NCBI GenBank assembly: GCA_964016885.1
Contig: OZ024740.1
Coordinates: 262,570,001-262,634,000, forward strand
DNA length: 64,000 nt
Origin: Eledone cirrhosa
Lineage: Eukaryota
Direction: 5' to 3'
Numbering within the stretch: position 1 is the first letter of the stretch; each line of letters opens with the position of its first letter. The notes under the pieces were generated by a model. It searched no databases. It saw nothing but the letters and a program-made list of their open reading frames with translations, and was not told where the DNA came from. The translations under genes were made by a program, and so were the position numbers. Positions 4,794 to 48,990 of the stretch are shown here, one piece after another.

Positions 4794-4810
4794 ATTATTA
4801 TGATTATATA

Positions 4811-12186: not shown

Positions 12187-12200
12187 TTATTATTATTATT

Positions 12201-18270: not shown

Positions 18271-21200
18271 GGCGACCTACGTAGTAAATCGTATTATCGT
18301 GAGCTCCGCAAAATTTGTTATTTTCAGTTGTTTAAAATTGCCATTTATGGAAAATCTTTATTGTTAACTGTATATAAGTGCACATACATTGTTTTCTGAA
18401 AAGGACAGTCAAAAAGATTGGGGCCTTGTGCCCAAAATTTAAATTTTTATAATTATCAAAAAAATTTCTTTGAAAAATCATGGCCGACTCACAGCTGCAC
18501 CAAGCAGCTGAGAGCCTTCCTCACAAACTAACACCTTACACCGAGACCACCATTGTAAATATTACTACGTTTGCCAACAATAAAAATATAAGCAGCAGCA
18601 ATATTTTAAATTTGTCTCAGGCAGACATTCATTTCCCGCAATTACCAATGACTGCAGGTGTTAAAGCCGCCACCCCCACTACCATCACCACTGCGACAAC
18701 AGAAACAAAAGAAAAAAATAAATTAACTCGTGATATCGAAATGAATTCAACCAAAATGAACTATTCCACACCGAACACCACTGACGCCACCACAACTGAA
18801 ACTAAAATTAATAATAACAAAAATAACGATAACAACAACAGCAACAATGAAATTAAGAAAACTACCCTGTCTTTTGCGAGAATAGCAAAAACGTGCGAAG
18901 CGCTCCAGATAACTCAGGAGGAATTAGAAGAAGCCAAATGAATGGTAAAGAAAGATGGGTACAGGGTCAGCCCCCCCCCCCCACAAACACACATAATAAA
19001 ATGGAGCATCGTCGCTTATGCACCGTGTCTTATCGGACAATTAACATAAAATCGCGCCATGTGGAACGGGCATCCTAGTCCCAAACCCAAAACGCTTTGG
19101 GACATGTGTGGGCAACAAAAACCCACATCAGACGTGGGCAGAAATATGGAACCGTGGACGTGTTCTTTGAAACACCACAGGAGGCCAGAGAACACTCCAT
19201 GGCCCCATTAAGAAGTGACGACTTCACACTCGTCCCAAGCTATGGTGGCCTGAGACTCGTGATCATCAGGGTGACCCACGTTCCACCGGCCATCGAAATT
19301 CCCTGGCTAATGGCTGCGTCCTCGCCGGCATCGAGGCCAACACCAAGATAATCGAAATAGCGAAAGAAAAGCAGGAGAACTGGTCCGGATTTGGGATGGA
19401 GCTCCTGATCCAAGCGGATCATAAAAACATTGAGCAGATCCCAGAGGTAATAGACCTCACTGACGGCAGCCACCTCACCGTAATCGTCGAGGGCAGAAGG
19501 CCTAGGTGTGTCGTTTGTGGTGAAGGAACCCACCCAAGAGCTTTCTGCCCTCAGGCTAAAAGGTTGAGGCCACCTCTCTTACCCACCCCAGTGACTCAAC
19601 CATCAAAACTGCCAGCAGCAGGGATGGCAGCAACAACTGTAGCAGCAACAACAGAGGCAACTGTAACAGCAACAACCGCAGCAACAGTAGCAAAACCAAC
19701 ACCACCACCACCCAACGCGCCATAACTAGCACCATCGCCTATACCATCCACCACGCCACAACCAAAACTAATACCTGCGGAGGATTTTCCACTCCCCGGC
19801 TTATCGCAACTGGAGACAGATTGTGACGACGAGTAGTGGGAATCGGTATCAGTAAAAAAGAAAAAAAGAAACCAAAAAAGAAAAAAAATACTCTTCCTTC
19901 CTCCTCCAAAAGCAAAATACAGAGGGAAACAAATAAACTATCAAACAAAAAGTTAGGACAGATATGCCACCATCCACACCAGCATCACCAACCCCATCAC
20001 CACAAACACCAACACCATCACCATCATTAACTCCAACACCACCATCACCAACACCACAAAAATCACCAAAAAGCGAAACAGAAACAAACCATAACAAACG
20101 CAGACAAAACAAAACAACCAAAACGATACACACTACAGAGCATTAAATTTGAACAACAACCAATTATTACACTACATCCAACAAAACACCAGCATCACAG
20201 AAAAAGACTACACAACAACCCAAAAGTTCACACCACCTCCACACATACAAATCACTCGCATCACACAGAAAACGTACACGACACTAAAACAAAAATTCCC
20301 CAAAGACATCGGAGACTTCCGACAAACACTCTCCAGGAGGATTTATAAGGACATCCTTCCGGAAGAGGCCACAAGCAGTGAAAAGGATGGACAAACCATC
20401 CTTCTACGAGAAGTAAGGTAAGTGGTCTTTCCCATCTTTTCCACTCCATTTCAACATGATCTCACTCATAATAGGCAGCATAAATGCGCGTGTCTTGTGG
20501 TCGTTATGGAAGCTGGGCCACCTGCTCAACGACCTCAGGTCACTAAACATAGATGTAGTGGCCATCAGCGAGACCAGAATCTCCGAAGCACGGGCCTTCG
20601 CACCAATCTTAGGCGGCTACGATGTGTACGCATCTCCCAGCCGTCCGGGATCGGGGGAGTGGGGGAGTTGCTGTGCTTTTTCGGAGAAGTTTGGATCTCG
20701 CCATACGGGCCATCTTCCTGGACCCAGAAGGTAAGTTGGTGGTGCTAGACGTGACCAGCGGAGACGGGCAATCTTTCAGGCTAGTGGCCGTCTATGCCCC
20801 AACAGGAGCAGGGCGGCCTGATTTCTTTCGGCGTATGTAGACCTTTCTTGGATCGTCCGCTCTTTAGTGTTAGTGGGCGACTGGAACGGGATCTTAGATG
20901 CACGCTGGGACTGTGTGGGCTTAACGGATAGGAGAGGAGGGTGCAAGAGCCTCACCATCCTGCTAAGGCGTTTTGAACTGACTGACAGGTACCGATTGGA
21001 TTTCCCGAATGTGCCAATGTGGACTTGGACAAATCGCATAGGGTCATCCAGATCATATCTAGATAGAGTATTTTGTAAGGAAATAGATAGGTCTAGCATA
21101 GGCTGTCCACAATTCAAGATAGTCAGCTACACGGACCACAAATTCGTGATATGTGTGCTTGACTTAGATAGGCTTCATAGACGAGGACCCAGCTACTGGA

Positions 21201-23554
21201 AGCTAAACGCGTCCTTTCCAGCGCGCAAGGCCTACAGAGACCAGATTAGCGAACTAGTTAAGCGGGCGTTGACGGGGGCCTTCGTCAACAGCAAGTGGTG
21301 GTTTGCTCTAAAAAGAGCAATTAGAATAGAGTCCATTAGATTTAGTAAGGCTTTATCAATAGAGCAAAATAGAGCAGAGGGAGAATTAGTTACATGCCAG
21401 ACTAGTTCGGAGGCCTCTTGGCGGACGTCTACTGCAACTGGCAACAGAACGGGAGGATCCGATCAAGGGGGATAACATAGATAATTTTAGGCCCATAACT
21501 CTGCTAAACACAGAGTTCAAGATTTTGGCCAAGGTGCTAGCAATTAGGTTGGCGCTTGTCGTTGGTGGTCTGGTGGGAGAGGCGCAGACATGCACCATTC
21601 CAGAAATTTCCAGCCACGACAACCTACACCTCATGCGATACATCGTAGAGAGGGTAGCTAGGGAACCTGGCACGGGTGGGTCCTTGATCAATTTAGATCA
21701 GTCGAAACCATTAGATAGGGTCGACCATCTTTACCTAGCGGCATCCTGAGGGCGGCTGGCTTTGGGCCCGTCTTTAGAGGCTGGATCGCAGCGACATCTG
21801 CTCTGTGGTGAGAGTGAACGGTCACCTTTCGGAACCGTTCAACATCATGCGCTCGGTCCGCCAAGGATGTCCCCTCTCGTCCCTCTTGTACATATTGACT
21901 CTCGAGCCATTACTGCACAAACTGGAGAAGTTCAGGGAGGTCCCGCGCGAACTAGGATGCGGAAAATCCGTGTCAGCATATGCGGACGATGTCACCGTAG
22001 TGGTGTCGAACGCCAAACACATCGAGGCGATCGGCACTACACTAAGAGAATACGAAGCGGTGACAGCAGCAATGATCAACCAGGAAAAGTCAGTGGGCCT
22101 GCAGCTCGGCACCTGGAGAGGAAGGTCCATGCCGTCCAACAGCGTCGTCGGGCGCTGGATGGACGGACCGGTTAAATTGCTCAGGGTCTGGTTCGGTCCG
22201 GACCTCCAGACGGACAAAAACTCGGACGAGGTGACGAGCAGGGTGGGTTCTGTCACCCAGAAATGGGCGGAGAGGAAGCTATCCTTGAAAGGTCGAGCGG
22301 AGGTGGCTAACGCGTACATCGCGTCCGTCATCTACTACCGCCTGACCGTTGTACCTTGTCCTAAGCCCCGCCTGACTGCGCTGGAGCGTTTGTTCTTTCG
22401 CTTTTTGTGGAAGGGACGCGCTCCGATGGAGGGCTGGAGCATGCCGTGGCTGATGATGCGCAGACACGCGCTCAGGCTACGACATCTCCACCTCTTCCTC
22501 GAGAGTGATCAGGTGTGGTCGCCGTTTGCTAGACACGTCTTTCCCCAGCTCGTCTCCTTGACGGAGCTGCAGTCCTGGGTCAAGCGAAGACCGAGAGGGA
22601 GCGCTTGGAGACTGGAATGTCTTCAGGCGCTCACAGCCCTCGACCAATCGGGCAATGTGATCGGTGGAAACTCCACCTTGGCGTTCTATAGAGGATTACT
22701 GGAGGGGAAGAGCGACGACGTACTTGGAGAAAATCTAGGCGTCGACGAAAATCAACTAGCCAATCTCTTCGGAAGGACTTTCCGGCCAGGGCCTATGGAC
22801 AACTTCCAGAAATCCCTGGCCTGGCAGTGCTATCGGGGTGCTTTGCCAGTTTGGGATAAACTCTACAGGCATGGAGGTGCCGTCAGCCGGGCATGTCCGA
22901 GATGCGCGCAGGGCGACGAAACCGTCCTGCACGCACTCGTCCAGTGTCCGAGCATTGCTGACTTGTGGGTTTATGTCGAACACCTGCTGTTACGTGCAGG
23001 ACGGATCCAGCTATCAGCTGAGTCCATCGTGAGGATTGCCCCGCCCCCTTCCTTTAGCCGGGAAGGGCACGCAATTTTTATCTGTCTGGTGGCCATGGCG
23101 AAAGAGATAGTATGATGGACACGTTTGAAAGGTCTGAAGACGAGCACGTACCTCTTCGGTGATGCCCTGATTAACTTTTTCAAATTTCATTTGAAAAGGA
23201 AAATCAGGGTAGAGAGGGAAGTGCTCTCTTCCCAGCATTTTGTTGAAAGATGGGTGAGAGAAGCAAGTATGGCCCGAGTGAATGGGCCTACTCTGAGTAT
23301 GTGTCTGTAAATTAAAGGTGGAAAACTGGGAGAGGGCACTTGCCCTGGTGGTTAGGGCCACTGTGGTCTTTTAATGGGCTTTCTCCACAAATGTCCCTCG
23401 GAAGTCTCCCCACTATTGGGGAATTTTTCTTTGTTATTTTATTTCAACCTCTGTTTTTTTTACACGCAGAAATGCCCATTTGTACCGGCCTGTATTGTCC
23501 TGTACTGTCCTTAATGTCTACTTTATGTAAACCCTTGTGGTTAATAAAGAAAAC
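18271..23554 (+). mobile_element. Tx1 LINE copy B, both termini present, degraded (ORF1 type 2)
   Basis: Starts GGCGACCTACGTAG after (TAT)n. ORF1 (18480-20421) and ORF2 (20456-23310) carry stops, frameshifts and deletions (large one near 21390). AATAAA plus (ATT)n tail. Confidence 0.95.
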
Positions 23555-23572
23555 ATTATTATTATTATTATA

Positions 23573-23617
<45 letters not shown>

Positions 23618-26600
23618 GGCGACCTACGTAGGAAATCGTATTATCGTGAGCTCCGCAAAGGTTTGTTATTTCCGTTTGTTTAAAAATTGCCATTTATGGA
23701 AAATGTTATTGTAAACTGTTTATAAGCACACATACATTGTTTTCCGAAGAGGACACCCAAAAAGATTGGGGCCTTGTGCCCAAAATTTTAACTTTTACTA
23801 TTATCAAAAAATTTCTTTGAAAAAATGGCTAATTCACCTCTACAACAAGGAGCTGAAAGCCTTCCTCACAAATTAACACCTCACACCGACACCACCATTG
23901 TAAATGTTACTACGTTTGCCAACACAAAAAAAAAATATAAGCAGTAGCAATATTTTAAATTTGTCTCAGGCAGACATTCATTTCCCGCCATTACCAATGA
24001 CTGCAGGTGTTTAACCCTCCACCACCACCACCACCGCGACAACAGAAACAAAAGAAGAAAAAAATAAATTAACTCGTGACGTCGAAATGAAATCAAGCAA
24101 AATGGACTCTTCCCCACCAAAGACGACTGACGTCACCACCACCACAACTGAAAATAAAATTAATATTAACGATAGCAACAACAACAACAATGACATTATA
24201 AAACCGACCCTCAGTTTCGCCATCGTAGCAAAACAATTCGAAGCGTTCACGGTAACTCAAGAAGATTTAGAAAATGCCAAACAAATGGTAAAGAAAGATG
24301 GGTACAGGGTCAGCCTCACCCCCCACCTAATAAAATGGAGCATCGGCGCCTGTGCACCGTGTCGTATAGAACAATAAATGTAAAATCGCGCCGAGTGGAA
24401 CGGGCATCCGAGTCCCAAATCCAAAAAGCTTTGGGACATGTGTGGGCAAGAAAAACCCACATCAGACGTGGGCAAAAGTATGGAACCGTGGATGTGTTCT
24501 TTGAAACACCAGAGGAGGCTAGAGAACACTCCATGGCCCCATTAAAAAGTGACGACCTCACACTCTTCCCAAGCTATTGTGGCCAGAGACTCGTAAAGAT
24601 CAGGGTGACCCACGTTCCACCGGCCATCGAAATTCCCTGGCTAATAGCGGCTGTCCTCGCCGGCATCGAAGCCAACACGAAAATAATAGCAGTAGCAAAA
24701 GAAAAGCAGGAAAACTGGTCCGGATCTGGGATGGAGCTCCTGATCCAAGCGGACCAAAAAAGCATTGAGGAGATCCCAGAGGTAATAGACCTCACTGACG
24801 GCAGCCACCTCACGGTAATTGTCGAGGGCAGAAGACCTAGGTGTGTCGTTTGTGGTGAAGGAACCCACCTAAGGGCTTTCTGCCCTCAGGCTAAAAGGTT
24901 GAGGCCACCTCTCCTGCCCACCCCAGTGACACAACCATCAACACCACCAGTAGCAGAAATGGCAGCAACAACTGTAGCAGCAACAACAGAAGCAACTATA
25001 ACAGCAACAACTCCAGCAACAGTAGCAAAACCAACACCACTACCACCACCAGCAAAACCAACACCACCACCACCCAACGCTTCAGAACTAGCACCAGCGC
25101 CTACACCATCCACCACACCACAACCAAAACTAACGGCTGTGGAGGATTTTCCACTTCCCGGCCTATCACAACTGGAGACAGATTGTGACGACGAGGAGTG
25201 GGAAACGATATCCGGAAAAAAAAAAGAAACCAAAAAAGAAAAAATTCTCTTCCTTCCCCCTCCAAAAACAAAATACAGAGGGAAACAAATAAACTAAGAA
25301 ACAAAAAAGTTAGGACAGATATGCCACCATCCACACCAGCATCACCAACCCCATCAACCCAAACACCAGCACCATCACCATCATTATCCCCAGCACCACC
25401 ATCACCTACACCACAAAAGTCACCAAAAAGCGAAACAAACAAACCCACAACAAACGCAAACAAAACAAAACAACCAAAACGATACACACTACACAGCATT
25501 AAATTTGAACAACAAGCAATTATTACACTACGTCCAACACAACACCAGCATCACAGAAAAAGACTACACAACAACCCCAAAATTCACACCACCTCCACAC
25601 ATACAAATCACTCGCATCACACAGAAAACGTACATGACACTAAAACAAAAATTCCCCAAAGACATCGGAGACTTCCGACAAGCACTCTCCAGGAGGATTT
25701 ATAAGGACATCCTTCCTGAGGAGGCCACAAGCAGTGAAAAGGATGGAAAAGCCGTCCTTCCCCTACGAGAAGTAAGGTAAGTGGTCTTTCCCATCTTTTC
25801 CACTCCTTTTCAACATGACCTCACTCAGAATAGGCAGCATAAATGCGCGTGGCTTGGGGTCATCATGGAAGCAGGGACACCTGCTCAACGACCTCAGGTC
25901 ACTAAACATAGATGTAGTGGCCATCAGCGAGACCAGAATCTCCGAAGCACAGGCTTTCGCACCGATCTTCGGCGGCTACGATGTGTACGCATCTGCCAGC
26001 CGTCCTGGATCGGGGGGAGGAGTTGCTGTGCTTTTTCGGAGAGGTTTGGATCTTGCCATACGGGCCATCTTCCTGGACCCAGAAGGTAAGTTGGTGGTGC
26101 TGGACGTGACCAGCGGAGACGGGCAAGCTTTCAGGTTAGTGGCCGTCTATGCCCCGACAGGAGCAGGGCGGCCTGATTTCTTCCGGCGTCTGGAGACCTT
26201 TCTTGGAACGTCCCGCTCTTTAGTGTTAGTGGGCGACTGGAACGGGATCTTAGATGCACGCTGGGATTGTGTGAGATTAGTGGATAGGGAAGGAGGGTGC
26301 AAGAGTCTCACCAACCTGCCCAGACGTTTTGAACTGTCTGACAGGTACCGAATGGATTTCCCGAATGTACCAATGTGGACTTGGACAAATCGCATAGGGT
26401 CATCCAGATCATATCTAGATAGAGTATTTTGTAGGGAAATAGATAGGTCTAGCATAGGCTGTCCACAATTCAAGATAGTCAGCTACACGGACTACAAAAT
26501 CGTGATCTGTGTGCTTGACTTAGATAGGCTTCATAGACGAGGACCCGGCTACTGGAAGCTAAACGCGTCCTTACCAGCGCGCAAGGCCTACAGAGACCGG

Positions 26601-29458
26601 ATTAGCGAACTAGTTAAGCGGGCGTTGACGGGGGCCATCGTCAACAACAAGTGGTGGTTTGCTCTGAAAAGAGCAATTAGAATAGAGTCCATTAGGTTTA
26701 GTAAGACTTTAGCAATAGAGAAAAATAGAGCAGAGGGAGAATTAGAAAATTAGATGAGGCGCTTAGCAAAGGCATCGCGACCGACGTACTTGCGGCGAAA
26801 TTGGCCCTTGACCAATTCTTCAATGCAAAGCACGAAGGCTGCGTTGTCAGAGCTAGGGTGCGTGCTCTCAGACACGAGGGGACGAAAGCCGTTCAATGGG
26901 CCCGAGTGGCGGAGGCGCGTCGTGGCAACAAAGCCACGATCCGGTCTTTGGTGGACCACGACGGGCGCATGCTACTCGATCCCGGGCAAATGTGTGAAGC
27001 TTTTCAGCGACACTTCGGGGGCAGTGGCGGGCCGGATCGAGGGATGGACTTTAGTGTCTACCTCGACGGACTGCCGCGGCTTTCGGCCACTGAGGCGGAG
27101 TGTTGCGAAAAGCCGATAACAACCGCTGAAGTACGGGATGCAATGACTAGTTGCACAAGGGGTAAATCGCCTGGTTTGGATGGTCTGCCCTATGAACTTT
27201 ACGTACAAATGCCAAACTTGTTCGGAGGCCTCTTGGCGGACGTCTACTGCAACTGGCAACAGAACGGGAGAATTCCCAGCTCTGTGAGCCGAGGAGCGGT
27301 GGCGCTGCTGAGAAAGGATCCGAACAAGGGGGATAACATAGATAATTTTAGGCCCATAACTCTGCTAAACACAGAGTTCAAGATTTTGGCCAAGGTGCTA
27401 GCAAAGAGGTTGGCGCTTGTCGTTGGTGGTCTGGTGGGAGAGGCGCAGACATGCGCCATTCCCGACAGATCCATCCACGACAACCTCCACCTCATGCGAT
27501 ACATCGTAGAGAGGGTAGCTAGGGAACCTGGCACGGGTGGGTCTTTGATCAATTTAGATCAGTCGAAAGCCTTCGATAGGGTCGACCATCATTACCTAGC
27601 GGCAGTCCTGAGGGCGGCTGGCTTTGAGCCCGTCTTCAGAGGCTGGATCGCTGCCATGCACAGCGACATCTGCTCTGTAGTGAGAGTGAACGGTCACCTT
27701 TCGGAACCGTTCAACATCATGCGCTCGGTCCGCCAAGGATGTCCCCTCTCGTCCCTATTGTACGTATTGACTCTCGAGCCATTACTGCACAAACTGGAGA
27801 CGTTGAGGGGGGTCCCGCGCGAACTAGGATGCGGAAGATCCGTGTCAGCATATGCCGACGATGTCACCGTAGTGGTGTCGAACGCCAAACACATCGAGGC
27901 GATCGGCACTACACTAAGAGAATACGAAGCGGTGACAGGAGCAATGATCAACCAGGAAAAGTCTGTGGGCCTGCAGCTCGGCACCTGGAGAGGCAGGTCC
28001 ATGCCGTCCAACAGCGTCGTCGGGCGCTGGATGGACGGACCGGTTAAATTGCTAGGGGTCTGGTTCGGTCCAGACCTCCAGACGGACAAAAACTGGGACG
28101 AGGTGACGAGCAGGGTGGCTTCTCTCACCCAGTAATGGGCCGAGAGGAAGCTATCCCTGAAAGGTCGAGCGGAGGTGGCGAATGCGTACATCGCATCCGT
28201 CATCTACTACCGCCTGACCGTCGTACCTTGTCCTAAGCCCCGCCTGACTGCGCTGGAGCGTTTGCTCTTTCGCTTCTTGTGGAAGGGACGCGCTCCGATG
28301 GTCAGGCGGTCCATCTGCTGTCAACACCCGCTACGTGGAGGGCTGGGCATGCCGTGGCTGATGATGCGCAGACACGCGCTCAGGCTACGACATCTCCACC
28401 TCTTCCTCGACGGTGATCAGGTGTGGTCGCCGTTTGCAAGACACGTTTTTCCCCAGCTCGTCTCCTTGACGGAGCTGCAGTCCTGGGTCAAGCGAAGACC
28501 GAGAGGGAGCGCTTGGAGACTGGAATGTCTTCAGGCGCTCACAGCCCTCGGCCAATCGGGCAATGTGATCGGTGGAAACTCCACCTTGGCGTTCTATAGG
28601 GGATTAGTGGAGGGGAAGAGCGACGACGTACTTGGAGAAACTCTAGGCGTCGACGAAAATCAACTAGCCAATCTCTTCGGAAGGACTTTCGGGCCGGGGC
28701 CTATGGACAACTTCCAGAAATCCCTGGCCTGGCAGTGCTACCGAGGAGCTTTGCCAGTTCGGGATAAACTCTACAGGCATGGAGGTGCCGTCAGCCGGGC
28801 ATGTCCGAGATGCGCGCAGGGCGACGAAACCGTCCTGCACGCACTCGTCCAGTGTCCGAGCATTGCTCACTTGTGGGTTTATGTCGAACACCTGCTGTCA
28901 CGTGTAGGACCTATCCAGCTATCAGCTGAGTCCATCGTGAGGATTGCCCCGCCCCCTTCCTTTAGCCTGGAAGGGCAGGCAGTTTTTATCTGTCTGGTGG
29001 CCATGGCGAAAGAGATAGTATGGTGGACACGTTTGAAAGGGCTGAAGACGAGCACTTACCTCTTCGGTGATGCCCTGATTAACTTTTTCAAATTTCATTT
29101 GAAAAGGAAAATCAGGGTAGAGAAGGAAGTGCTCTCTTCCCACCATTTTGTTGAAAGATGGGTGAGAGAAGCAAGTATGGCCCGAATGAATGGGCCTTCT
29201 CTGAGTATGTGTCTGTAAATTAAAGGTGGAAAACTGGGAGAGGGCACTTGCCCTGGTGGTCAGGGCCACTGTGGTCTTTTAATGGGCTTTCTCCACAAAT
29301 GTCCCTTGGAAGTCTCCCCCTATTGGGGAATTTTTCTTTGTTATTTTATTTCAACCTATGTTTTTTTACACGCAGAAATGCCCATTTGTACCGTCCTGTA
29401 TTGTCCTGTACTGTCCTTAATGTCTACTTTATGTGAACCCTTGTGGTTAATAAAGAAA

Positions 29459-29460
<2 letters not shown>
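23618..29460 (+). mobile_element. Tx1 LINE copy C, full-length, mildly degraded (ORF1 type 2)
   Basis: Same 5' end as B. ORF1 23825-25780 is frameshifted; ORF2 25815-29218 has a frameshift near 26745 and a stop at 28133. Confidence 0.96.
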
Positions 29461-29511
<51 letters not shown>

Positions 29512-29724
29512 GAATGCCATGGTTGACGGAGGCTCGGCTCTGTAAGGTATAGTAATTTTTAACCGTTAAAACAATTGTAAATTGTTTAAAACTTGAACCA
29601 AATTGTTGATAAAGACACCCTCCTCCTCGTGAGAGGGGTCTTTCTGTCCGTTATTTGGCCCTTCGGGGTTAAATAGCCAGTTATTGGGGTTTTGTACCCA
29701 AAATTTCATTTTAAACAAAAAAAC

Positions 29725-31824
29725 ATGGCTACCAAAAAAAAAAAATTTCATACGTCACTCCCACTCATTCCGTCTTCTTCTTCCTCAATCATCACTACAG
29801 GAGAGAGAAGATTGTCTCTCTCCCTCCCTTCTTTAAATGTGTCTCTCTCCCTACCTTCTCTTTCGCAAGCGACGAAAGAAAAGAAAAGTCTCGTGCAAAG
29901 CGTGCAAGGTTTCTCCACGACGACGACGACAGCGACGAAACAGGTGTGCGGGAAATACGAAAACCCAGTTCATTCGTCTGACGTCAGGAATAATAGCAGT
30001 AGCAGCCGTAATAACAACAGCAACAGTGACAATGAAAACAACAGTAGCAGCCGCAACAGCATCACCAGCAGCATAAACAACAACAGCATTAGCAGCAGCA
30101 ACACCAACAACAACCACAGCAACAGCGGCGGAGGCAGTAGTCGTAGTACCTGCAGCAACAACAAAAGTACCAGCAGCTCTGACGACAACAACAACAGCAG
30201 AGAAAAACCAATCTCATTTGCAGGTATTGCGAAAAACCTGGAAACAATCCTCATAACAAATGAGGAATTAGAGGAAGCGAAGAAGATGGTGACAAAGAAC
30301 GGACACCGAGCAATCTGCAAGGCAGCGAAAAATTTTTTCGAAACCCAAGAGCACTGTACGGTCACGTACCGTACAGTAAGTACAAAATCCCGTAGGGTGG
30401 AAAGAGCCACAGAGGCCCAAATACAAAAAGCCTTGGGGTCTGTGTGGCAGAGGAAAACGCACATCACCCGAGGCAAAAAATACGCCACCGTAGACGTACT
30501 TTTTGCCACACCCCAGGAGGCAAAGGCCCAATCAGTAGTGACCCTAAGGAGCGAGGAAATGGTGTTGGTGCCCTCCTACTGCGGGCAAAAAATTGTGAGG
30601 GTCAAACTGACCCACGTCCCCCCCGGAATGACCCCTTCTTGGCTGGCCGCGTCTGTCCTCGTCGGAATCGAGGACAAAACAACTGTACTGCAAGTACAGA
30701 AAAAAGTAAGAGAAGATTGGGTCGGCTCCTCCATTGAGATGCTAATCCAAACCAACCAGGAGTGCATCGAAGCTATCCCGGATGTGATAGACTTCGATAA
30801 CGGCACTCAACTGCCCATAAGTGTTGAGGGCAAACGCCCGAAATGCTTTCGCTGTGGATCGAAGACTCACCTCAGGGCCTTCTGCAACGAGAAGACCCTG
30901 AGAAAGGAGAAAACCCCCCTCCTCCCGAATCCGGTTCCACGGCTACCAGCAACAGGACAAGCGGCAACCAGGAACGATAGGTCCGTGGCACCCATACCCA
31001 CTCCACGGAAATCAAAGACAGCAGCAGCAGTGGAAATATTAACAACAACAACAGCAATACCAAATGCAGCTGCAACAGAGACTCCAGTGCAAACATCACC
31101 AACAACAACAAGTGAAAGAGTGGAGCTGGTACCCCTCCCCGACCTTACAGAATCAGACATGGAGTGTGAGGTGGGAGAGGGATGGCAAAAGGTCTCAAGA
31201 AGGCACAAACGCAGAAGCAGCGCATCGTCGCCTTTGAAAAGGGAGGAAAGAAATGAGAAAAGGGTAAAGTCTACTGCAAAGAGACCCACAGCAGCAACAC
31301 CACCAACACCATCACCACCCACACCAGCACCACCATCACCACCGGCGACAACCCCACCGCCAACAACACCTTCAACACCACCACCACAAGCACCAACATC
31401 GCAAACACAACAACAAAACACACACACCCAGCAACAACGACAAGAAAATAGCAGAACCACACCCCACCCCCAGAAAAACAAATGCACGGCAATAAACACA
31501 CACAACAAGAAACTAATGACTTACATAATTGAACACACAGACATTTCACAACAGGACTACATAATACCAGCACCAATCAAAACGCCAACTAACATAAGAC
31601 TGCTAAAAATAGCACAGAAACAATACACAAACATTAAAACGAAATTCCCCAACGCAGTTGGTGATTTCAGGGACCTAGGAGGAACCATTAATCGAAGAGT
31701 ATATTCAGACATTCTCTTAGAAGAGCCGACGACCAGCCGAAGGGACGATTCAACGGTCCCTTCACCAGACGATCAAGTGAAAAGGGATGTAAAAACCATC
31801 CCTCCTCTACCAAAAATACGGTAA
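29725..31824 (+). CDS. Tx1 ORF1 nucleic-acid-binding protein (~699 aa): S/N-rich N-terminus, CCHC knuckle, P/T-rich linker, conserved C-terminal domain
   Basis: Open frame 29692..31824, first ATG at 29725; CFRCGSKTHLRAFC. Confidence 0.9.
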   Translation: MATKKKKFHTSLPLIPSSSSSIITTGERRLSLSLPSLNVSLSLPSLSQATKEKKSLVQSVQGFSTTTTTATKQVCGKYENPVHSSDVRNNSSSSRNNNSNSDNENNSSSRNSITSSINNNSISSSNTNNNHSNSGGGSSRSTCSNNKSTSSSDDNNNSREKPISFAGIAKNLETILITNEELEEAKKMVTKNGHRAICKAAKNFFETQEHCTVTYRTVSTKSRRVERATEAQIQKALGSVWQRKTHITRGKKYATVDVLFATPQEAKAQSVVTLRSEEMVLVPSYCGQKIVRVKLTHVPPGMTPSWLAASVLVGIEDKTTVLQVQKKVREDWVGSSIEMLIQTNQECIEAIPDVIDFDNGTQLPISVEGKRPKCFRCGSKTHLRAFCNEKTLRKEKTPLLPNPVPRLPATGQAATRNDRSVAPIPTPRKSKTAAAVEILTTTTAIPNAAATETPVQTSPTTTSERVELVPLPDLTESDMECEVGEGWQKVSRRHKRRSSASSPLKREERNEKRVKSTAKRPTAATPPTPSPPTPAPPSPPATTPPPTTPSTPPPQAPTSQTQQQNTHTQQQRQENSRTTPHPQKNKCTAINTHNKKLMTYIIEHTDISQQDYIIPAPIKTPTNIRLLKIAQKQYTNIKTKFPNAVGDFRDLGGTINRRVYSDILLEEPTTSRRDDSTVPSPDDQVKRDVKTIPPLPKIR

Positions 31825-31859
31825 GTGGTCTTTCCCATCTTTTCCACTCTATTTTAAAC

Positions 31860-34800
31860 ATGACCTCACTCAGAATAGGCAGCATAAATGCGCGTGGCTT
31901 GGGGTCGTCATGGAAGCAGGGTCACCTGCTCAACGACCTCAGGTCACTAAACATAGATGTAGTGGCCATCAGCGAGACCAGAATCTCCGAAGCACGGGCC
32001 TTCGCACCGATCTTCGGCGGCTACGATGTGTACGCATCTCCCAGCCGTCCTGGATCGGGTGGAGGAGTTGCTGTGCTTTTTCGGAGAGGTTTGGATCTCG
32101 CCATACGGGCCATCTTCCTGGACCCAGAGGGTAAGCTGGTGGTGCTGGACGTGACCAGCGGAGACGGGCAAGCTTTCAGGCTAGTGGCCGTCTATGCCCC
32201 GACAGGAGCAGGGCGGCCTGATTTCTTCCGGCGTCTGGAGACCTTTCTTGGAACGTCGCGCTCTTTAGTGTTAGTGGGCGACTGGAACGGGATCTTAGAT
32301 GCACGCTGGGACTGTGTGGGATTAGCGGATAGGGGTGGAGGGTGCAAGAGCCTCACCAACCTGCTCAGGCGTTTTGAACTGTCTGACAGGTACCGATTGG
32401 ATTTCCCGAATGTGCCAATGTGGACTTGGACAAACCGCATAGGGTCATCCAGATCATATCTAGATAGAGTATTTTGTAGGGAAATAGATAGGTCTAGCAT
32501 AGGCTGTCCACAATTCAAGATAGTCAGCTACACGGACCACAAATTCGTGATCTGTGTGCTTGACTTAGATAGGCTTCATAGACGAGGACCCGGCTACTGG
32601 AAGCTAAACGCGTCCTTACCAGCGCGCAAGGCCTACAGAGACCGGATTAGCGAACTAGTTAAGCGGGCGTTGACGGGGGCCATCGTCAACAACAAGTGGT
32701 GGTTTGCTCTGAAAAGAGCGATTAGAATAGAATCGATTAGGTTTAGTAAGGCTTTAGCAATAGAGAAAAATAGAGCAGAGGGAGAACTAGTTAGAAAATT
32801 AGACGAGGCGCTTAGCAAAGGCATTGCGACCGACGTGCTTGCGGCGAAATTGGCCCTTGACCAATTCTTCAATGCAAAGCACGAAGGCTGCGTTGTCAGA
32901 GCTAGGGTGCGTGCTCTCAGACACGAGGGGACGAAAGCCGTTCAATGGGCCCGAGTGGCGGAGGCGCGTCGTGGCAACAAAGCCACGATCCGGTCTTTGG
33001 TGGACCACGACGGGCGCATGCTACTCGATCCCGGGCAAATGTGTGAAGCTTTTCAGCGACACTTCGCTCAGCTGTTCGGGGGCAGCGGGGGGCCGGGTAG
33101 AGGGATGGACTTTAGTGTCTACCTCGACGGACTGCCGCGGCTCTCGGCCACTGAGGCGAAGTGTTGCGAAAAGCCGATAACAGCCGCTGAAGTAAGGGAG
33201 GCAATGACTGGCTGCACAAGGGGTAAATCGCCTGGTTTGGATGGTCTGCCCTATGAACTTTACGTACAGATGCCAGACTTGTTCGGAGGCCTCTTGGCGG
33301 ACGTCTACTGCAACTGGCAACAGAACGGGAGAATTCCCAGTTCTGTGAGCCGAGGAGCGGTGGCACTGCTGAGAAAGGATCCGAACAAGGGGGATAACAT
33401 AGACAATTTCCGGCCCATAACTCTGCTAAACACAGAGTTTAAGATTTTGGCCAAGGTGCTAGCAAAGAGGTTGGCGCTTGTCGTTGGTGGTCTGGTGGGA
33501 GAGGCGCAGACATGCGCCATTCCCGACAGATCCATCCACGACAACCTCCACCTCATGCGATACATCGTAGAGAGGGTAGCTAGGGAACCTGGCACGGGTG
33601 GGTCCTTGATCAATTTAGATCAGTCGAAAGCTTTCGATAGGGTCGACCATCGTTACCTAGCGGCAGTCCTGAGGGCGGCTGGCTTTGGGCCCGTCTTCAG
33701 AGGCTGGATCGCTGCCATGCACAGCGACATCTGCTCTGTGGTGAGAGTGAACGGTCACCTGTCGGAACCGTTCAACATCATGCGCTCGGTCCGCCAAGGA
33801 TGTCCCCTCTCGTCCCTCTTGTACGTATTGACTCTCGAGCCATTACTGCACAAACTGGAGACGTTGAGGGGAGTCCCGCGCGAACTAGGATGCGGAAGAT
33901 CCGTGTCAGCATATGCGGACGATGTCACCGTAGTGGTGTCGAACGCCAAACACATCGAGGCGATCGGCACTACACTAAGAGAATACGAAGCGGTGACAGG
34001 AGCAATGATCAACCAGGAAAAGTCAGTGGGCCTGCAGCTCGGCACCTGGAGAGGCAGGTCCATGCCGTCCAACAGCGTCGTCGGGCGCTGGACGGACGGA
34101 CCGGTTAAATTGCTAGGGGTCTGGTTCGGTCCGGACCTCCAGACGGACAAAAACTGGGACGAGGTGACGAGCAGGGTGGCTTCTCTCACCCAGAAATGGG
34201 CGGAGAGGAAGCTATCCCTGAAAGGTCGAGCGGAGGTGGCTAACGCGTACATCGCGTCTGTCATCTGCTACCGCCTAACCGTCGTACCTTGTCCTAAGCC
34301 TCGCCTGACTGCGCTGGAGCGTTTGCTCTTTCGCTTTTTGTGGAAGGGACGTGCTCCGATGGTCAGGCGGTCCATCTGTTGTCAACACCCGCTACGTGGA
34401 GGGCTGGGCATGCCGTGGCTGATGATGCGCAGGCACGCGCTCAGGCTACGACATCTCCACCTCTTCCTCGACGGTGATCAGGTGTGGTCGCCGTTTGCTA
34501 GACGCGTTTTTCCCCAGCTCGTTTCCTTGACGGAGCTGCAGTCCTGGGTCAAGCGAAGACCGAGAGGGAGCGCCTGGAGACTGGAATGTCTTCAGGCGCT
34601 CACAGCCCTCGACCAATCGGGCAATGTGATCGGTGGAAACTCCACCTCGGCGTTCTATAGAGGATTAGTGGAGGGGAAGAGCGACGACGTACTTGGGGAA
34701 ACTCTAGGCGTCGACGAAAATCAACTAGCCAATCTCTTCGGAAGAACCTTCGGGCCAGGGCCTATGGACAACTTCCAGAAATCTCTGGCCTGGCAGTGCT

Positions 34801-35279
34801 ACCGAGGAGCCTTGCCAGTTCGGGATAAACTCTACAGGCATGGAGGTGCCGTCAGCCGGGCATGTCCGAGATGCGCGCAGGGCGACGAAACCGTCCTGCA
34901 CGCACTCGTCCAGTGTCCGAAAATTGCTGACTTGTGGGTTTATGTCGAACACCTGCTGTCGCGTTTAGGACGGATCCAGCTATCATCTGAGTCTATCGTG
35001 AGGATTGCCCCGCCCTCCTCCTTTAGCCGGGAAGGGCAGGCAGTTTTTATCTGTCTGGTGGCCATGGCGAAAGAGATAGTATGGTGGACACGTTTGAAAG
35101 GGCTGAAGACGAGCACTTACCTCTTCGGTGATGCTCTGATTGACTTTTTCAAATTTCATTTGAAAAGGAAAATCAGAGTAGAGAAGGAAGTGCTCTCTTC
35201 CCAGCATTTTGTTGAAAGATGGGTGAGAGAAGCAAGAATGGCCCGAGTGAATGGGCCGACTCTGAGTATATATCTGTAA
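31860..35279 (+). CDS. Tx1/L1 ORF2: APE endonuclease, reverse transcriptase and C-terminal zinc-binding domain (1139 aa)
   Basis: INARG, SETR, GDWN, YLDR, TDH; LDQSKAFDRVDH, RQGCPLS, YADD; CPRC...ETVLHALVQC. All intact. Confidence 0.97.
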   Translation: MTSLRIGSINARGLGSSWKQGHLLNDLRSLNIDVVAISETRISEARAFAPIFGGYDVYASPSRPGSGGGVAVLFRRGLDLAIRAIFLDPEGKLVVLDVTSGDGQAFRLVAVYAPTGAGRPDFFRRLETFLGTSRSLVLVGDWNGILDARWDCVGLADRGGGCKSLTNLLRRFELSDRYRLDFPNVPMWTWTNRIGSSRSYLDRVFCREIDRSSIGCPQFKIVSYTDHKFVICVLDLDRLHRRGPGYWKLNASLPARKAYRDRISELVKRALTGAIVNNKWWFALKRAIRIESIRFSKALAIEKNRAEGELVRKLDEALSKGIATDVLAAKLALDQFFNAKHEGCVVRARVRALRHEGTKAVQWARVAEARRGNKATIRSLVDHDGRMLLDPGQMCEAFQRHFAQLFGGSGGPGRGMDFSVYLDGLPRLSATEAKCCEKPITAAEVREAMTGCTRGKSPGLDGLPYELYVQMPDLFGGLLADVYCNWQQNGRIPSSVSRGAVALLRKDPNKGDNIDNFRPITLLNTEFKILAKVLAKRLALVVGGLVGEAQTCAIPDRSIHDNLHLMRYIVERVAREPGTGGSLINLDQSKAFDRVDHRYLAAVLRAAGFGPVFRGWIAAMHSDICSVVRVNGHLSEPFNIMRSVRQGCPLSSLLYVLTLEPLLHKLETLRGVPRELGCGRSVSAYADDVTVVVSNAKHIEAIGTTLREYEAVTGAMINQEKSVGLQLGTWRGRSMPSNSVVGRWTDGPVKLLGVWFGPDLQTDKNWDEVTSRVASLTQKWAERKLSLKGRAEVANAYIASVICYRLTVVPCPKPRLTALERLLFRFLWKGRAPMVRRSICCQHPLRGGLGMPWLMMRRHALRLRHLHLFLDGDQVWSPFARRVFPQLVSLTELQSWVKRRPRGSAWRLECLQALTALDQSGNVIGGNSTSAFYRGLVEGKSDDVLGETLGVDENQLANLFGRTFGPGPMDNFQKSLAWQCYRGALPVRDKLYRHGGAVSRACPRCAQGDETVLHALVQCPKIADLWVYVEHLLSRLGRIQLSSESIVRIAPPSSFSREGQAVFICLVAMAKEIVWWTRLKGLKTSTYLFGDALIDFFKFHLKRKIRVEKEVLSSQHFVERWVREARMARVNGPTLSIYL

Positions 35280-35540
35280 ACTAAAGGTGGAAAACTGGGA
35301 GAGGGCACTTGCCTTGGTGGTCAGGGTCATTGTGGCTTTTTACTGGGCTTTCTCCACAAATGTCCCTCCGAAGTCTCCCCCCTATTGGGGAATTTTTCAT
35401 TGTTATTTTCATTGTTATTTTTGTTACATCCTCTATTTTTGTTTTTTTTACACGCAGAAATGCCCATTTGTACCGTCCTGCATTGTCCTGCACTGTCCTT
35501 AATGTCTACTTTATGTAAACCCTTGTGGTTAATAAAGAAA

Positions 35541-35578
<38 letters not shown>

Positions 35579-35590
35579 ATTATTATTATT

Positions 35591-36481: not shown

Positions 36482-36526
<45 letters not shown>

Positions 36527-36527
<1 letters not shown>

Positions 36528-42388: not shown

Positions 42389-42435
42389 ATATATAATAAT
42401 GATTTATTTATTTTAATAATAATAATAATAATAAT

Positions 42436-45400
42436 GATTTCTTTATTGGCCACAAGGGCTGACATCAAGAAAAACATTACAGACGGCACAGTACGGTACA
42501 GGACAGTACGATGTGGGTTTTGTGCGTGTAAATATTTTTATTATTTATATAAGAAAAGCAGTGGGCAGAGGGCAGTGAGCGCCTGGAGACATTCCAGTTT
42601 CCAAGCGCTATTCCTCGGTCTTTTCCTGACCCAGGACTGCAGCTCCGTCAATGAGACGAGCTGTGGGAAAACGTGCCTGGTGAACGGCGACCACACCCTG
42701 TTCACCGTCAAGGAGGCACCAGAGATGTCGCAGCCTCGGCGCATGTTTGCGCTTCATCAGCCATGGCATGCCCTGTCCTCCACGCAACGGGTGTTGACAG
42801 CAGATGGATCGTCTGACCATGGGAGCGCGTCCCTTCCACAAAAAGCGGAAGAGGACGCGCTCCATTTTCTTGAGAGTTGGGCCGGGACAAGGGACGACGG
42901 TGAGGCGGTAGCAGATGACGGATGCGATGTACGCATTCGCCACCTCCGCTCGACCTTTCAGGGATAGCTTCCTCTCTGCCCATTTCTGGGTGAGAGAAGC
43001 CACTCTGTTCGTTACCTCGCTCCAGTTTATCTCCATCTGGAGGTCTGGTCCGAACCAGACCCCGAGCAATTTAACCGGTCCGCCCGTCCAACGCCCCACG
43101 ACGCTGTAGGAGGGCATGGACTTGCCTCTCCAGGTGCCGAGCTGCAAGCCCACCGACTTTTACTGGTTTATCTTTGCTCCTGTCACTGCTTCGTGTTCCT
43201 TGAGAGCGATGCCGAGCATCTGGACGTTTCTGGTGCTCGACACCTGAAGTTATCAATAACATCCCCTTTGTTCGGGTCTTATCTCAGCTGCGCCACCGCT
43301 CCCCGGCTCACAAAACTGGGAATGCTCCAGTTCTGCTGCCAGTTGCAGTAGACGTCTGCCAAGAGGTCACCGAACAAGTCTGTCATAAATGCATAAAGCT
43401 CGTAGGGCAGACCATCCAAACCTGGCGATTTACACCTCGTGTAGTTAGCTATCGCTTCCCGTATTTCACCGGCTGTTATTGGATTTTGCAACACTGTCCT
43501 GCGGTTGGCGAGAGCCGCGGCAGTCCGTCGAGGTATACACTGAAGTCCATAACCCGATCCGGCCCACCGCTGCTACCGAACAGGTCAGCAAAGTGCTGCT
43601 GAAAAGCTTCACCATCTGCTCGGGTTCGAGCAACACGCGCCAGTTTTGGTCAGATAAAGACCGAATTGTGGCTTTGTTGCCACGTCGCCCCTCTGCTACC
43701 CGGGCCCATTGGACCGCTTTTGTAACCTCGTGTTTCAGAGCTCGTGCTCTCGCTCTGACAACGCAGCCTTCGTGTTTTGCGTTGAAGAATTGGTGGAGTG
43801 CCAATCTCGCCGCAAGCACGATGCGTGTCCCAAACGCCAATTCTAGCTTTCTACTAGCTCTCCCTCTACTATATTTTCCTCTATCACTAGTCCTTTGTTA
43901 AACCTAATCGACTCACTTTAATTGGCCTTTTCAGGGCGAATCACCACCTGTTGTTGACGACCGCTCCCGTCAACGCCCGCTTAACTAATACGCTACTCCG
44001 GTCTGTGTAGACTTTGCGCGCCGGGAAAGCCGCGTTCAGCTTCCGGTAACCGTTCCTTGTCTATGAAGTCTGTCTATGCCGATCTTACAGATCACAAATT
44101 TGTGGTCTGTGTAGTCGACTATTTTAAATTGGGGACAACTTATACTAGCCTTGTCTAGTTCTCTGCAGAATGCCCTATCGAGATACTATCTGGATGACAC
44201 GATGCGGTTTGTCCATGTCCACGTTGGCACATTAGGGTGATCCAGTCGATACCTGTCAGACAGTTCAAAACGTCTGAGCAGGTTGGTGAGGCTCTTTCAC
44301 CCTCCTCCCCCTATCCACTAGCCCCACACAATCCCAGCGTGCATCCAAGATATCGTTCCAGTCGCCCACTAACACTAAATAGCGGGACGTTCCAAGAAAG
44401 GTCTCTAGACATCTGAAGAAATCTGGCCGTCCTGTCCCTGTCGGGGCATAGACGGCTACTAGCCTGAACGCGTTGCCTTCGGTGCCGCTTACGTTCAGCA
44501 CCACCGACTTCCCTTCTGGGTCCAGGAAGATAGTCTGTATGGCGAGACCCAAGCCTTTCCGAAACAACACAGCCACTCCGCCCCCCTCCCCCGGACGGCT
44601 CGGAGATGCGTACACCTCGTAACCGTCGAAGATCGATGCCAAAGCTTGCGTTTCGGAGATTCTCGTCTCGCTGATGGCCACCACATTTATGTTTAGTGAC
44701 CTGAGGTCGTTAAGCAAGTGACCCTGCTTCCAAACCGAGCTCAAGCCACGCACGTTTACACTTCCGATCCTGAATACGGCCATGTTGTGTGAGGAACGGG
44801 GCAAGTGAGAAAGGATCACTTACCTTGATCGTCTGGTGGAGGGACCGTTGAATCGTCCCTTCGGCTGGTCGTCGGCTCTTCTGTGAGTATATCCGAGTAT
44901 ACTCTCCCGTTGAGTGTCCCTCCTAGGTCTCTGAAATCACCAACTGCGTTGGGGAATTTTAATGTTTTTGTATTGTTTCTGTGATATTCTTACCAGTCTT
45001 ATGTTCGTTGGTGTTTTGATTGGTGCTGGTATTATGTAGTCGTGCTGTGAAATGGCTGTGTGTTCAATTATGTAAGTCATTAGTTTCTTGTTGTGTATAT
45101 TTATTGCTGTGCATTTGTTTTTCTGGAGGTGTGGTGTGGTTCTGATATTTTCTTCTCGTTGTTGCTGGGTGTGTGTGTTTGTTGTTGTGTTTGCGATGTT
45201 GGTGCTTGTGGTGGTGTTGTTGAAGGTGTTGTTGTTGTTGGCGGTGGGGTAGCCGCCGGTGGTGATGGTAGTGCTAGTGTAGGTGGTGATGGTGTTGGTG
45301 GTGTTGCTGCTGTAAATCTCTTTGCAGTAACCTTCACCCTTTTTTCATTTCTTCCCTTCCTTTTCGAAGGCGACGATGCGCTGCTTCTGCGTTCGTGCCT

Positions 45401-46539
45401 TCTTGCGACCTTTTGCCATCCCTCTCTCACCTCCCACTCCATGTCCGATCCAGTGAGGTCGGGGAGGGGTACCAGCTCCACCCTTTCACTTGTTCTTGTT
45501 GGTGATGGTTGCAGTGGAGTCTCTGTTGCAGCTGCAGTTGGTATTAATCTTGTTGTTGATACTTCCACTGCTGCTGCTGTTCTTGATTTCCGTGGCGTGG
45601 GTATGGGTGCCTCGGACCTATCCTTCCTGCTTGCCGCCAGTCCTGTTGCTGGTAACAGTGGAGCCGGTTTCGGAATGAGAGGGGTTTTCTCCTTTCTCAG
45701 GGTCTTCTCATTGCAGAAGACCCTGAGTTGAGTCTTCGACCCATAGCGAAAGAATTTCGAGCGTTTGCCCTCAACACTTATGGGAAGATGAGTGCCGTTA
45801 TCGAAGTCTATCACATCCGGGATAGCTTCGATGCACTCCTGGTTGGTTTGTTAATTCAATTCGGCGCCTCCATTAAGATGTTAGTCATCTTAATGGAGGC
45901 GCCGACCCAATCTTCTCGTACTTTATTCTGTACTTGCAGTACAGTTGTTTTGTCCTCTATTCTGACGAGGACAGACGCAGCCAGCCAAGAAGGGGCCATC
46001 CCGGAGGGGGGAGGACTTCGGTCAATTTGACCCTCACAATTTTTTGCCCGCAGTAGGAGGGCACCAACACCATTTTCTCGCTCCTTAGGGTTACTAAGGA
46101 TTGAGCCTTTGCCTCCTGGGGTGTGGCAAAAAGCATGTCCACGGTGGCACATTTCTTGCCTCGGGTGATATACTTTTTCTACCGCCACACAGGCCCTAAG
46201 GCTTTTTGTATTTGAGCCTATGTGGCTCTTTCAACCCTACGTGACTTTGTGCTTACTGTACGTTACGTGACCGTTGGGTTTCGAAAACTTCTTCGGCTGC
46301 CTTGCAGATTGCTCTGTGTCCGGTTTTCGTCACCATCTTCCTTGCTTCCCGTAATTCCGCATTTGTTATAAGGATGGTTTCCAGGTTCTTTGCGATACCT
46401 GAAAAACGAGACTGGTTTTTCTTTCTTGTTGTTGTTGTCGTCAGAGCTGCTGCTACTTTTTTTGTTGCTGCTGGTGCTACGACACCGCCACCACTGTTGC
46501 TGTTGTTGTTGTTGTTGTTGTTGTTGCTGCTGCTTTTGT

Positions 46540-46570
<31 letters not shown>

Positions 46571-48274: not shown

Positions 48275-48277
<3 letters not shown>

Positions 48278-48682: not shown

Positions 48683-48719
48683 ATAACAATAACAATAATA
48701 ATAATAATAATAATAATAA

Positions 48720-48974
48720 GGGTCTATTGATTACTTATCGCAAATCCCAGGAAACCCGTGTATAGGAGAAATACAAATGATAGTACTAATGGGAACTGCC
48801 CATATACTAAGGAAGATTCTGTCAATATAAGTACATCACAAGTCTAAACACTAAAGATGCATGTGTGAGTATGTATGTTCTTTCTTGAACATGGCGGACC
48901 TTGTTGTCTCTTGAGGTCACTGGTTGTGACTTGGTGATAACTCTTATGAACATAAAGCAAGATAAATGCAACTG
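48720..48974 (+). mobile_element. RLE 3' fragment (family b)
   Basis: Reverse complement of about 5562-5818; ends in (TAA)n. Confidence 0.85.
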
Positions 48975-48990
48975 TAATAATAATAATAAT

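What the first reader, a model, noticed from the sequence alone, without database searches (positions are those of the whole stretch)
29512..31860. Modular 5'UTR/ORF1 swapping: intact copy D is a recombinant with a visible crossover
Seen: ORF2 of C and D is nearly identical, yet their 5' UTRs are unalignable apart from the hairpin and their ORF1s are only distant homologues. D follows the type-3 ORF1 of copy E up to CCAGACGATCAAG (~31777), then resembles the type-2 ORF1 end (GTGAAAAGG..., cf. ~25734) and takes the B/C spacer and ORF2. Three ORF1 types (A; B/C; D/E) occur in one window. Inference: template switching or recombination exchanges the promoter-plus-ORF1 cassette on a common ORF2, possibly to escape silencing.
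Basis: partly seen in the sequence, partly recalled or inferred. Interest (0 to 1): 0.7.

Follow-up and report, generated by a model that had tools for sequence, protein, structure and literature searches.

The report
Retrotransposon gene swap at splice site
An intact jumping gene in an animal genome is a hybrid of two related families, a known kind of swap, but the join falls exactly on an RNA splice signal, which hints that splicing helped build the hybrid.

Summary
Copy D (29512-35590) is an intact L1/Tx1-type LINE and a real recombinant. Its ORF1 groups with E (90% vs 63% to C); its ORF2 groups with B/C (97% vs 83% to E). AU tests reject congruence both ways. Corrections: the join at 31777/31778 is offset and non-homologous (2-nt AG overlap, ORF1 end duplicated). 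The 43-nt tail is only 79-82% like B/C, so it needs a second event or an unsampled donor. E is itself a composite. D and C 5'UTRs are distant homologues. Such swaps are well known in LINEs. New: the E-type part of D stops exactly at E's best splice-donor match (AAG|GTAAGT), which also overlaps the ORF1 stop in B, C and D. The B/C-type part starts right after CAG. B/C/D carry a strong acceptor-like site in the 3'UTR, suggesting an ORF2-spanning intron. Chance of hitting the donor is about 1%. The acceptor at the join is weak, and no RNA data or further genomic copies were available. Best reading: splice-site-guided ORF1 exchange (0.5). Rival: template switch at microhomology (0.3). Escape from silencing is untested.

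The parts
29461..29511 (+). (TTA)n tract: 3' tail of copy C and insertion site of D
29512..29724 (+). 5'UTR of D; distant homologue of B/C/E 5'UTRs, with extra hairpins
   Evidence: alignment against shuffles and folding
29725..31824 (+). ORF1 of D, 699 aa: Ser/Asn-rich N-terminus, tandem RRM-like fold, CCHC knuckle (aa 374-387), Thr/Pro-rich linker, small conserved C-terminal domain, chimeric tail
29984..31777 (+). Type-3 (E-like) segment of D; last base corresponds to E 44824, the last base before E's GTAAGT
31778..31820 (+). 43-nt type-2-like ORF1 tail, 79-82% to B/C; duplicates the homologous type-3 end; one extra base puts it in the B/C reading frame
31820..31826 (+). Splice-donor-like G|GTAAGT overlapping the ORF1 stop; best of 312 GT sites in D; start of near-identity to B/C
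31825..31859 (+). 35-nt ORF1-ORF2 spacer, B/C type
31860..35279 (+). ORF2 of D, 1139 aa: APE endonuclease, RT (YADD), C-terminal CCHC; B/C lineage; under purifying selection
35438..35457 (+). Pyrimidine tract plus CAG, acceptor-like, best of 441 AG sites in D; putative end of an ORF2-spanning intron (31821-35457)
35531..35590 (+). AATAAA and (ATT)n tail of D
23618..29511 (+). Copy C, type-2 5'UTR/ORF1, B/C/D ORF2, decayed; CAG ending at 25734 precedes the segment found in D; donor after 25776
18271..23617 (+). Copy B, type 2, decayed; CAG ending at 20378; donor after 20417
42393..46668 (-). E2: 5'-truncated type-3 element with its own spacer and ORF2, internally deleted; donor after 44824
46690..48222 (-). 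E1: diverged type-2 5'UTR and ORF1 N-part fused to E2 through a short duplicated filler
1..4807 (+). Copy A, type-1 ORF1; ORF1 end, spacer and ORF2 start deleted; 5' end outside the window

Best explanation
D belongs to a recombinant, probably once-active subfamily of a (TTA)n-associated L1/Tx1-type LINE. Shown: its 5' module is type 3, its ORF2 is the B/C lineage, and the join is offset with a 2-nt overlap exactly at the type-3 donor-like site. Inferred step 1: these elements have a real 5' splice site at the ORF1 stop, normally joined to a 3'UTR acceptor to give an ORF1-only mRNA, so 5'UTR+ORF1 acts as exon 1. Inferred step 2: the type-3 exon 1 was joined at that site to a type-2-like element 43 nt upstream of its own donor. 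This could be splicing to a cryptic AG in a read-through transcript of head-to-tail copies, trans-splicing, or an RT jump onto the free 3' end of exon 1. Inferred step 3: the hybrid RNA was retrotransposed and kept both ORFs. Inferred step 4: a second exchange at or near the type-2 donor, or a donor subfamily not present in the window, explains why the tail is more diverged than ORF2.
For: The type-3 part ends to the base at E 44824, which is followed by GTAAGT, the best of 279 GT sites in E. The type-2 part starts right after CAG in both B and C. Of 1268 possible joins with >=2 nt overlap between 140 nt of type 3 and 137 nt of type 2 around the ORF1 ends and spacers, 14 (1.1%) end at the donor. 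None of 7 other internal junctions in A, B and E starts at GT (judged by eye, with D or C standing in for the lost sequence). G|GTAAGT overlaps the ORF1 end in 4 of 4 copies that keep that region, in two reading phases; about 0.36 are expected per copy anywhere. The 3'UTR acceptor-like site ranks 1/441 (D), 1/357 (B), 2/394 (C). The predicted splice has the same phase in B, C and D and adds 20 residues before a stop upstream of AATAAA. Two of 4 distant ORF1 homologues with complete C-termini end in GK or GKS, as this motif would encode; one ends DQGK like E. B, C and D lie head to tail. D ORF2 private changes are 28 synonymous, 9 replacement, 0 stops. Splice-made L1 chimeras are published (PMC13174262, passages and section 22).
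Against: The AG at the join is a poor acceptor, ranking 256/394 in C and 283/357 in B. A splice join between an AG-ending exon and an AG acceptor looks the same as AG microhomology. The splice scores are my own crude counts, and the donor consensus is recalled. A and E lack the AG at the B/C/D acceptor position; E's alternative site is not in its top 6 of 431. B and C have an equally good donor match inside ORF2. The GK-ending test is post hoc, protein-only and n = 4; over all 150 hits only 4 end so, against about 2.5 expected. E's own composite junction is not at a splice site, so non-splice joins occur in this family. One junction only; no RNA evidence; copy number unknown.
Confidence: 0.5

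Rival explanations
1. RT template switch during target-primed reverse transcription from a type-2-like RNA to a type-3 RNA at a 2-nt AG overlap. Selection for an intact ORF1 keeps only joins near its end, and the donor coincidence is chance.
For: Same-strand chimera with 2-nt overlap. Strand switching is a favoured model for mosaic mouse L1 families (PMC3600994 section 11). The acceptor at the join is weak.
Against: About 1% chance of ending at the donor; 0 of 7 other junctions do. It does not explain the conserved donor-like motif itself.
Confidence: 0.3
2. DNA-level origin: a 5'-truncated type-2-like copy inserted at the end of a type-3 ORF1, or an end-joining deletion fused tandem type-3 and type-2 copies; the hybrid locus was then retrotransposed.
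For: Tandem arrays exist. E is such a composite, with a duplicated filler at its join. Truncated insertion between ORF1 and ORF2 is proposed in PMC4120745 section 13.
Against: The four visible 5' ends all abut (TTA)n, and the join site is not such a tract. There is no filler at D's join. It needs the same ~1% coincidence.
Confidence: 0.15
3. The 43-nt tail is a tandem duplication inside type 3, and the only crossover is a homologous one at 31820.
For: Near-identity to B/C begins at 31820 (30 identical nt). The tail is homologous to the type-3 end.
Against: The tail is 33/42 to C and 32/39 to B but 22/42 to D's own upstream end and 23/42 to E's.
Confidence: 0.03
4. Assembly artefact joining two copies.
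For: Repeat-rich region; no reads were available.
Against: Only 2 nt of overlap; the tail matches no window copy closely; both ORFs stay open; D ORF2 has its own mostly synonymous changes.
Confidence: 0.02

Closest known systems
Mosaic mammalian L1 families (mouse 5'UTR replacement and inter-family recombination; PMC3600994, passages and section 11; PMC5381506, passages)
   Same: Different 5' modules on a shared ORF2; region-dependent trees; intact recombinants.
   Different: Here the whole ORF1 (63% identity) is exchanged, the 5'UTRs are distant homologues, the join is offset, and it sits on a donor-like site. The string 'splic' does not occur in either paper's main text.
Reticulate ORF1 evolution in L2/CR1 LINEs (PMC4120745, passages and section 13)
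   Same: Whole ORF1 moving between ORF2 lineages.
   Different: That is ancient and between clades, with no junction seen; here it is between subfamilies, with the junction resolved to the base.
Splice-made mRNA/L1 chimeras, e.g. RAP1GDS1/L1PA2 (PMC13174262, passages and section 22)
   Same: 5' part ends exactly at a donor; 3' part is a near-complete LINE, sometimes with no clear acceptor; product can retrotranspose.
   Different: The 5' partner there is a host exon; here it is the 5'UTR+ORF1 of a sister retrotransposon.
SpIREs (PMC5860796, abstract and outline only)
   Same: Retrotransposed product of spliced LINE RNA.
   Different: SpIREs are internal splices of one L1 RNA and mostly dead ends; D joins two subfamilies and keeps both ORFs.
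Tx1-clade sequence-specific LINEs such as Kibi (TC)n and Koshi (TTC)n (PMC4494074, passages)
   Same: RRM+CCHC ORF1, APE-RT ORF2, association with a microsatellite.
   Different: The repeat here is (TTA)n; clade placement by RT tree was not tested.
Zebrafish LINE with functional splice sites (Tamura et al. 2007, PMID 17174483; title seen only in reference lists; content recalled, paper not held)
   Same: A LINE with functional splice sites; I recall an ORF1-only spliced RNA, unverified.
   Different: I recall no link to ORF1 swapping; not checked.

Membership tests
L1-superfamily non-LTR retrotransposon | Two ORFs; ORF2 with APE endonuclease, RT and C-terminal zinc motif | tested here: met
   Pfam Exo_endo_phos, RVT_1, zf-RVT; motifs
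L1-superfamily non-LTR retrotransposon | ORF2 closest to L1 among solved retroelement proteins | tested here: met
   L1 ORF2p E 2.7e-52 vs R2 1.3e-21; only 14 PDB sequences matched
L1-superfamily non-LTR retrotransposon | No LTRs; 3' simple-repeat tail | tested here: met
   (ATT)n tails in all five copies; no long terminal repeat seen in the self-comparison
Tx1 clade | Type I ORF1 (RRM plus CCHC knuckle) | tested here: met
   Tandem-RRM fold matches, weak, best E 2.4e-4; CCHC at aa 374; Atlas hits CCHC/ZCCHC3-like 0.88-0.93; type described in PMC5203782 passages
Tx1 clade | RT phylogeny with Tx1 references | not tested
   No named Tx1 reference among the 120 listed hits
Tx1 clade | Target-sequence preference | tested here: inconclusive
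   4 of 4 visible 5' ends abut (TTA)n; one window only
Splice-made LINE chimera | 5' part ends exactly at a splice donor | tested here: met
   D31777 = E44824, followed by GTAAGT; motif match only, use not shown
Splice-made LINE chimera | 3' part starts after a splice acceptor | tested here: inconclusive
   CAG present but ranks 256/394 and 283/357; true donor subfamily unsampled
Splice-made LINE chimera | Spliced RNA observed | not testable with these tools
   No transcript data
Splice-made LINE chimera | Target-site duplication around the whole chimera | tested here: inconclusive
   Both ends lie in (TTA)n, so a duplication cannot be told
mRNA/L1 chimera (PMC13174262) | 5' partner is a host-gene exon | tested here: not met
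   5' partner is a sister element's ORF1
SpIRE | Internal splice of one element's RNA | tested here: not met
   Two subfamilies joined, with a net duplication of the ORF1 end

The most novel reading that the evidence does not exclude
This LINE family has a conserved intron spanning ORF2, which makes 5'UTR+ORF1 a true exon. Because the elements pile up head to tail in (TTA)n, splicing from one copy's ORF1-end donor into the next copy routinely builds new autonomous subfamilies: exon shuffling between retrotransposons, with the spliceosome as the recombinase. This would give a concrete, testable mechanism for modular ORF1/promoter exchange in LINEs.
Probability: 0.3. Interest if true: 0.75.

Novelty: new variant of a known kind. 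Interest (0 to 1): 0.48.

Why it matters
LINEs are known to exchange 5' modules, but the mechanism is unsettled; PMC3600994 lists three models, none involving splicing. A base-resolved junction on a conserved donor-like site turns this into a test: breakpoints should cluster at that site, and spliced RNAs should exist. If the coincidence is chance, this is an ordinary, clear example of a recombinant LINE subfamily, probably in a cephalopod (nearest named ORF2 hit is Argonauta hians, 73%; host inferred).

Tried and rejected
Word-index protein searches for ORF1 relatives found none. The full HMMER search found 624 at E<=0.001, 150 listed; the 37 best single-stretch hits compared were only 24-41% identical to the D core, so no second D-type junction could be looked for. 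The bacterial/archaeal genome scan gave 57 pattern matches and 0 confirmed. The cluster look-up for source names could not be made, so the origin of the ORF1 homologues is unknown. Rfam at gathering threshold gave 0 matches in the window, so no known ribozyme in the 5'UTRs. Pfam MBD matches to ORF1 are below cut-off and were ignored. My early idea that the acceptor is conserved at one position in all five copies was wrong: A and E lack it. A generally fast-evolving ORF1 tail is unlikely, as B and C are 145/152 identical there. Selection on the D ORF1 core could not be shown (2 synonymous, 0 replacement, p = 0.08). Literature: no paper held all of Tx1 / non-LTR retrotransposon / ORF1 / splice donor; ZfL3 gave only unrelated papers; searches listed nothing on splice-mediated ORF1 exchange between subfamilies. 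The library lacks most subscription papers, I had no Repbase, and no supplements were opened, so absence from print is not established. Papers read as passages without useful content: PMC3894237, PMC11203168, PMC12026185. Metagenome and viral contig collections stayed unchecked.
Full report
Setting. The window is repeat-rich animal DNA with five copies (A-E) of one LINE family. B, C and D lie head to tail, separated only by (TTA)n. D runs from 29512 to 35590 and has two open frames. ORF2 has APE endonuclease, RT and zinc-binding domains, intact motifs, and L1 ORF2p as best solved relative. Its nearest named hit is from Argonauta hians at 73%, so a cephalopod host is likely (inference). ORF1 is predicted with a confident N-terminal core that weakly matches tandem RRM structures, followed by a CCHC knuckle. 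That is the type I ORF1 associated with Tx1 elements (PMC5203782, passages). Tx1 membership by RT tree was not tested.

The recombination is real. In the ORF1 core D is 453/502 identical to E and 341/545 to C. In ORF2 D is 562/581 and 640/660 identical to C but 481/578 and 551/661 to E. Trees give (D,E) at 98/98 for ORF1 and (B,C,D) at 100/100 for ORF2. AU tests reject (B,C,D) on ORF1 (p = 2.9e-5) and (D,E) on ORF2 (p = 4.9e-35) (6 and 5 rows, none left out). A and E fall on the same side in both trees, so D is the discordant copy. D's ORF2 has 28 synonymous, 9 replacement and 0 stop changes private to it, against 29% synonymous expected if neutral (p = 7e-9). C has 22/14/1 and B 22/45/3. So D's ORF2 descends from an active lineage, and an assembly join is unlikely. 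Whether the junction was present throughout that time is not shown.

The junction is not a simple crossover. D matches E up to 31777 (1 mismatch in 45 nt) and shares only 2 nt (AG) with B/C before the switch. The E-type end and the B/C-type end are homologous, so D carries this segment twice. The 43-nt tail is 33/42 identical to C, 32/39 to B and 22/42 to D's own upstream end, which rules against a local duplication. It has 6 of 36 D-private changes against 45 of 2718 in ORF2 (p = 3.8e-5), whereas B and C are 145/152 identical in their ORF1 ends. Near-identity to B/C starts at 31820. The tail therefore came from a more distant type-2 relative, or two events occurred. A relative of about that distance exists in the window: the 5' part of E is 85% identical to B/C in the ORF1 core, but it lacks its ORF1 end. 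One extra base in D's tail places it in the B/C reading frame.

E is a composite: a diverged type-2 5'UTR and ORF1 start (48222 to ~46690) fused, through a short duplicated filler, to a 5'-truncated type-3 element. No second type-3 promoter is present, so promoter exchange is inferred from D alone. The D and C 5'UTRs are distantly homologous beyond the hairpin (z = 4.2; first 135 nt z = 4.2 for C, 2.2 for B, 1.7 for E).

The last type-3 base in D corresponds to E 44824, which is followed by GTAAGT. By my crude consensus score this is the best of 279 GT sites in E. The same G|GTAAGT overlaps the ORF1 stop in D (best of 312), B and C (tied best of 253 and 290). A has lost the region. About 0.36 such 7-mers are expected per copy anywhere. 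B, C and D have an acceptor-like site in the 3'UTR ranking 1/357, 2/394 and 1/441. Splicing between these sites would remove ORF2, keep the same phase in all three, and add 20 residues before a stop upstream of AATAAA. A and E lack the AG at that position. A has two other high-ranking 3'UTR sites; E has one that is not in its top six. Five of the 37 best distant ORF1 hits share the C-terminal domain. One ends inside the domain and was dropped. Two of the other four end in GK or GKS, as the motif would encode, one with the same four residues as E. This is post hoc and protein-only; over all 150 hits 4 end so, against about 2.5 expected.

On the other side of the join, B and C have CAG immediately before the segment found in D. 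The junction is thus what splicing from the type-3 donor to a cryptic type-2 AG would leave. Among 1268 possible joins with at least 2 nt overlap in the two ORF1-end regions, 14 end at the donor. None of seven other internal junctions in A, B and E starts at GT (by eye, using D or C for the missing sequence; the aligner split E's two deletions into six rows). Against this, the cryptic AG ranks 256/394 and 283/357, an AG/AG splice join cannot be told from AG microhomology, and there is one junction and no RNA evidence.

Mechanism. I put splice-site-guided exchange at 0.5 (read-through or trans-splicing, or an RT jump onto the free first exon), template switching at chance microhomology at 0.3, a DNA-level fusion or truncated insertion at 0.15, and duplication or artefact at 0.05 together. 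These are judgements, not computed values. The mosaic and the junction position are shown; the intron, the splice event, the second exchange and subfamily status are inferred. Escape from silencing is untested.

Comparison. 5'UTR replacement and inter-family recombination are established for L1 (PMC3600994, passages and section 11; PMC5381506, passages). Whole-ORF1 exchange is proposed for L2/CR1 (PMC4120745, passages and section 13). [quoted passage not shown] Splice-made host-exon/L1 chimeras that retrotranspose are described, with speculation that chimeras drive 5'UTR swaps (PMC13174262). SpIREs are internal splices (PMC5860796, abstract). Searches listed nothing on splice-mediated ORF1 exchange between subfamilies, in a library that lacks most subscription papers; no supplements were opened.

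Verdict. The finding as written is a correct example of a known phenomenon. The splice-site coincidence makes it a new variant with a sharp test. Interest 0.48; most novel reading probability 0.3, interest 0.75 if true.

Noticed in passing
window 46690-46668 (-): Copy E is a second composite: diverged type-2 5' part fused to a truncated type-3 element, with a 10-nt sequence repeated across the join, as in templated end joining.
   Followed up: partly
window 31480-31740 (+): ORF1 has a small C-terminal domain with no Pfam match, conserved across ORF1 types and in five distant homologues; partly confident in the model.
   Followed up: partly
window 35440-35545 (+), and the same block in A, B, C, E: A ~100-nt block before the tail is 77-86% conserved across all ORF2 lineages; candidate ORF2p recognition signal or second exon. 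A/E and B/C/D have acceptor-like sites about 60 nt apart within it.
   Followed up: partly
window 35544-39292, 12155-14953, 48275-52046 and shorter pieces (-): A second, R2-like LINE family (RT matches R2 structures; C-terminus resembles a restriction-like endonuclease, recalled) also lies in TAA/TTA tracts. Dong elements target TAA (PMC3812793, passages); the Dong/R4 label is a lead only.
   Followed up: partly
window 57200-61273 (+): An unrelated, frameshifted APE-RT LINE (Exo_endo_phos_2, RVT_1); clade not determined.
   Followed up: no
window 29612-29715 (+): D's 5'UTR has two or three hairpins where B/C have one; no Rfam match.
   Followed up: partly
window 26086 and 20731 (+): B and C have a second strong donor match inside the endonuclease region; D differs there.
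   Followed up: no
window 4797-5016, 6967-7178, 50655-50847, 53887-54103, 62036-62228: A ~200-nt dispersed repeat at about 90% identity, SINE- or MITE-like.
   Followed up: no
window 9506-10003 and 55731-56617: Another repeat, with direct and inverted copies near 55.7-56.6 kb.
   Followed up: no
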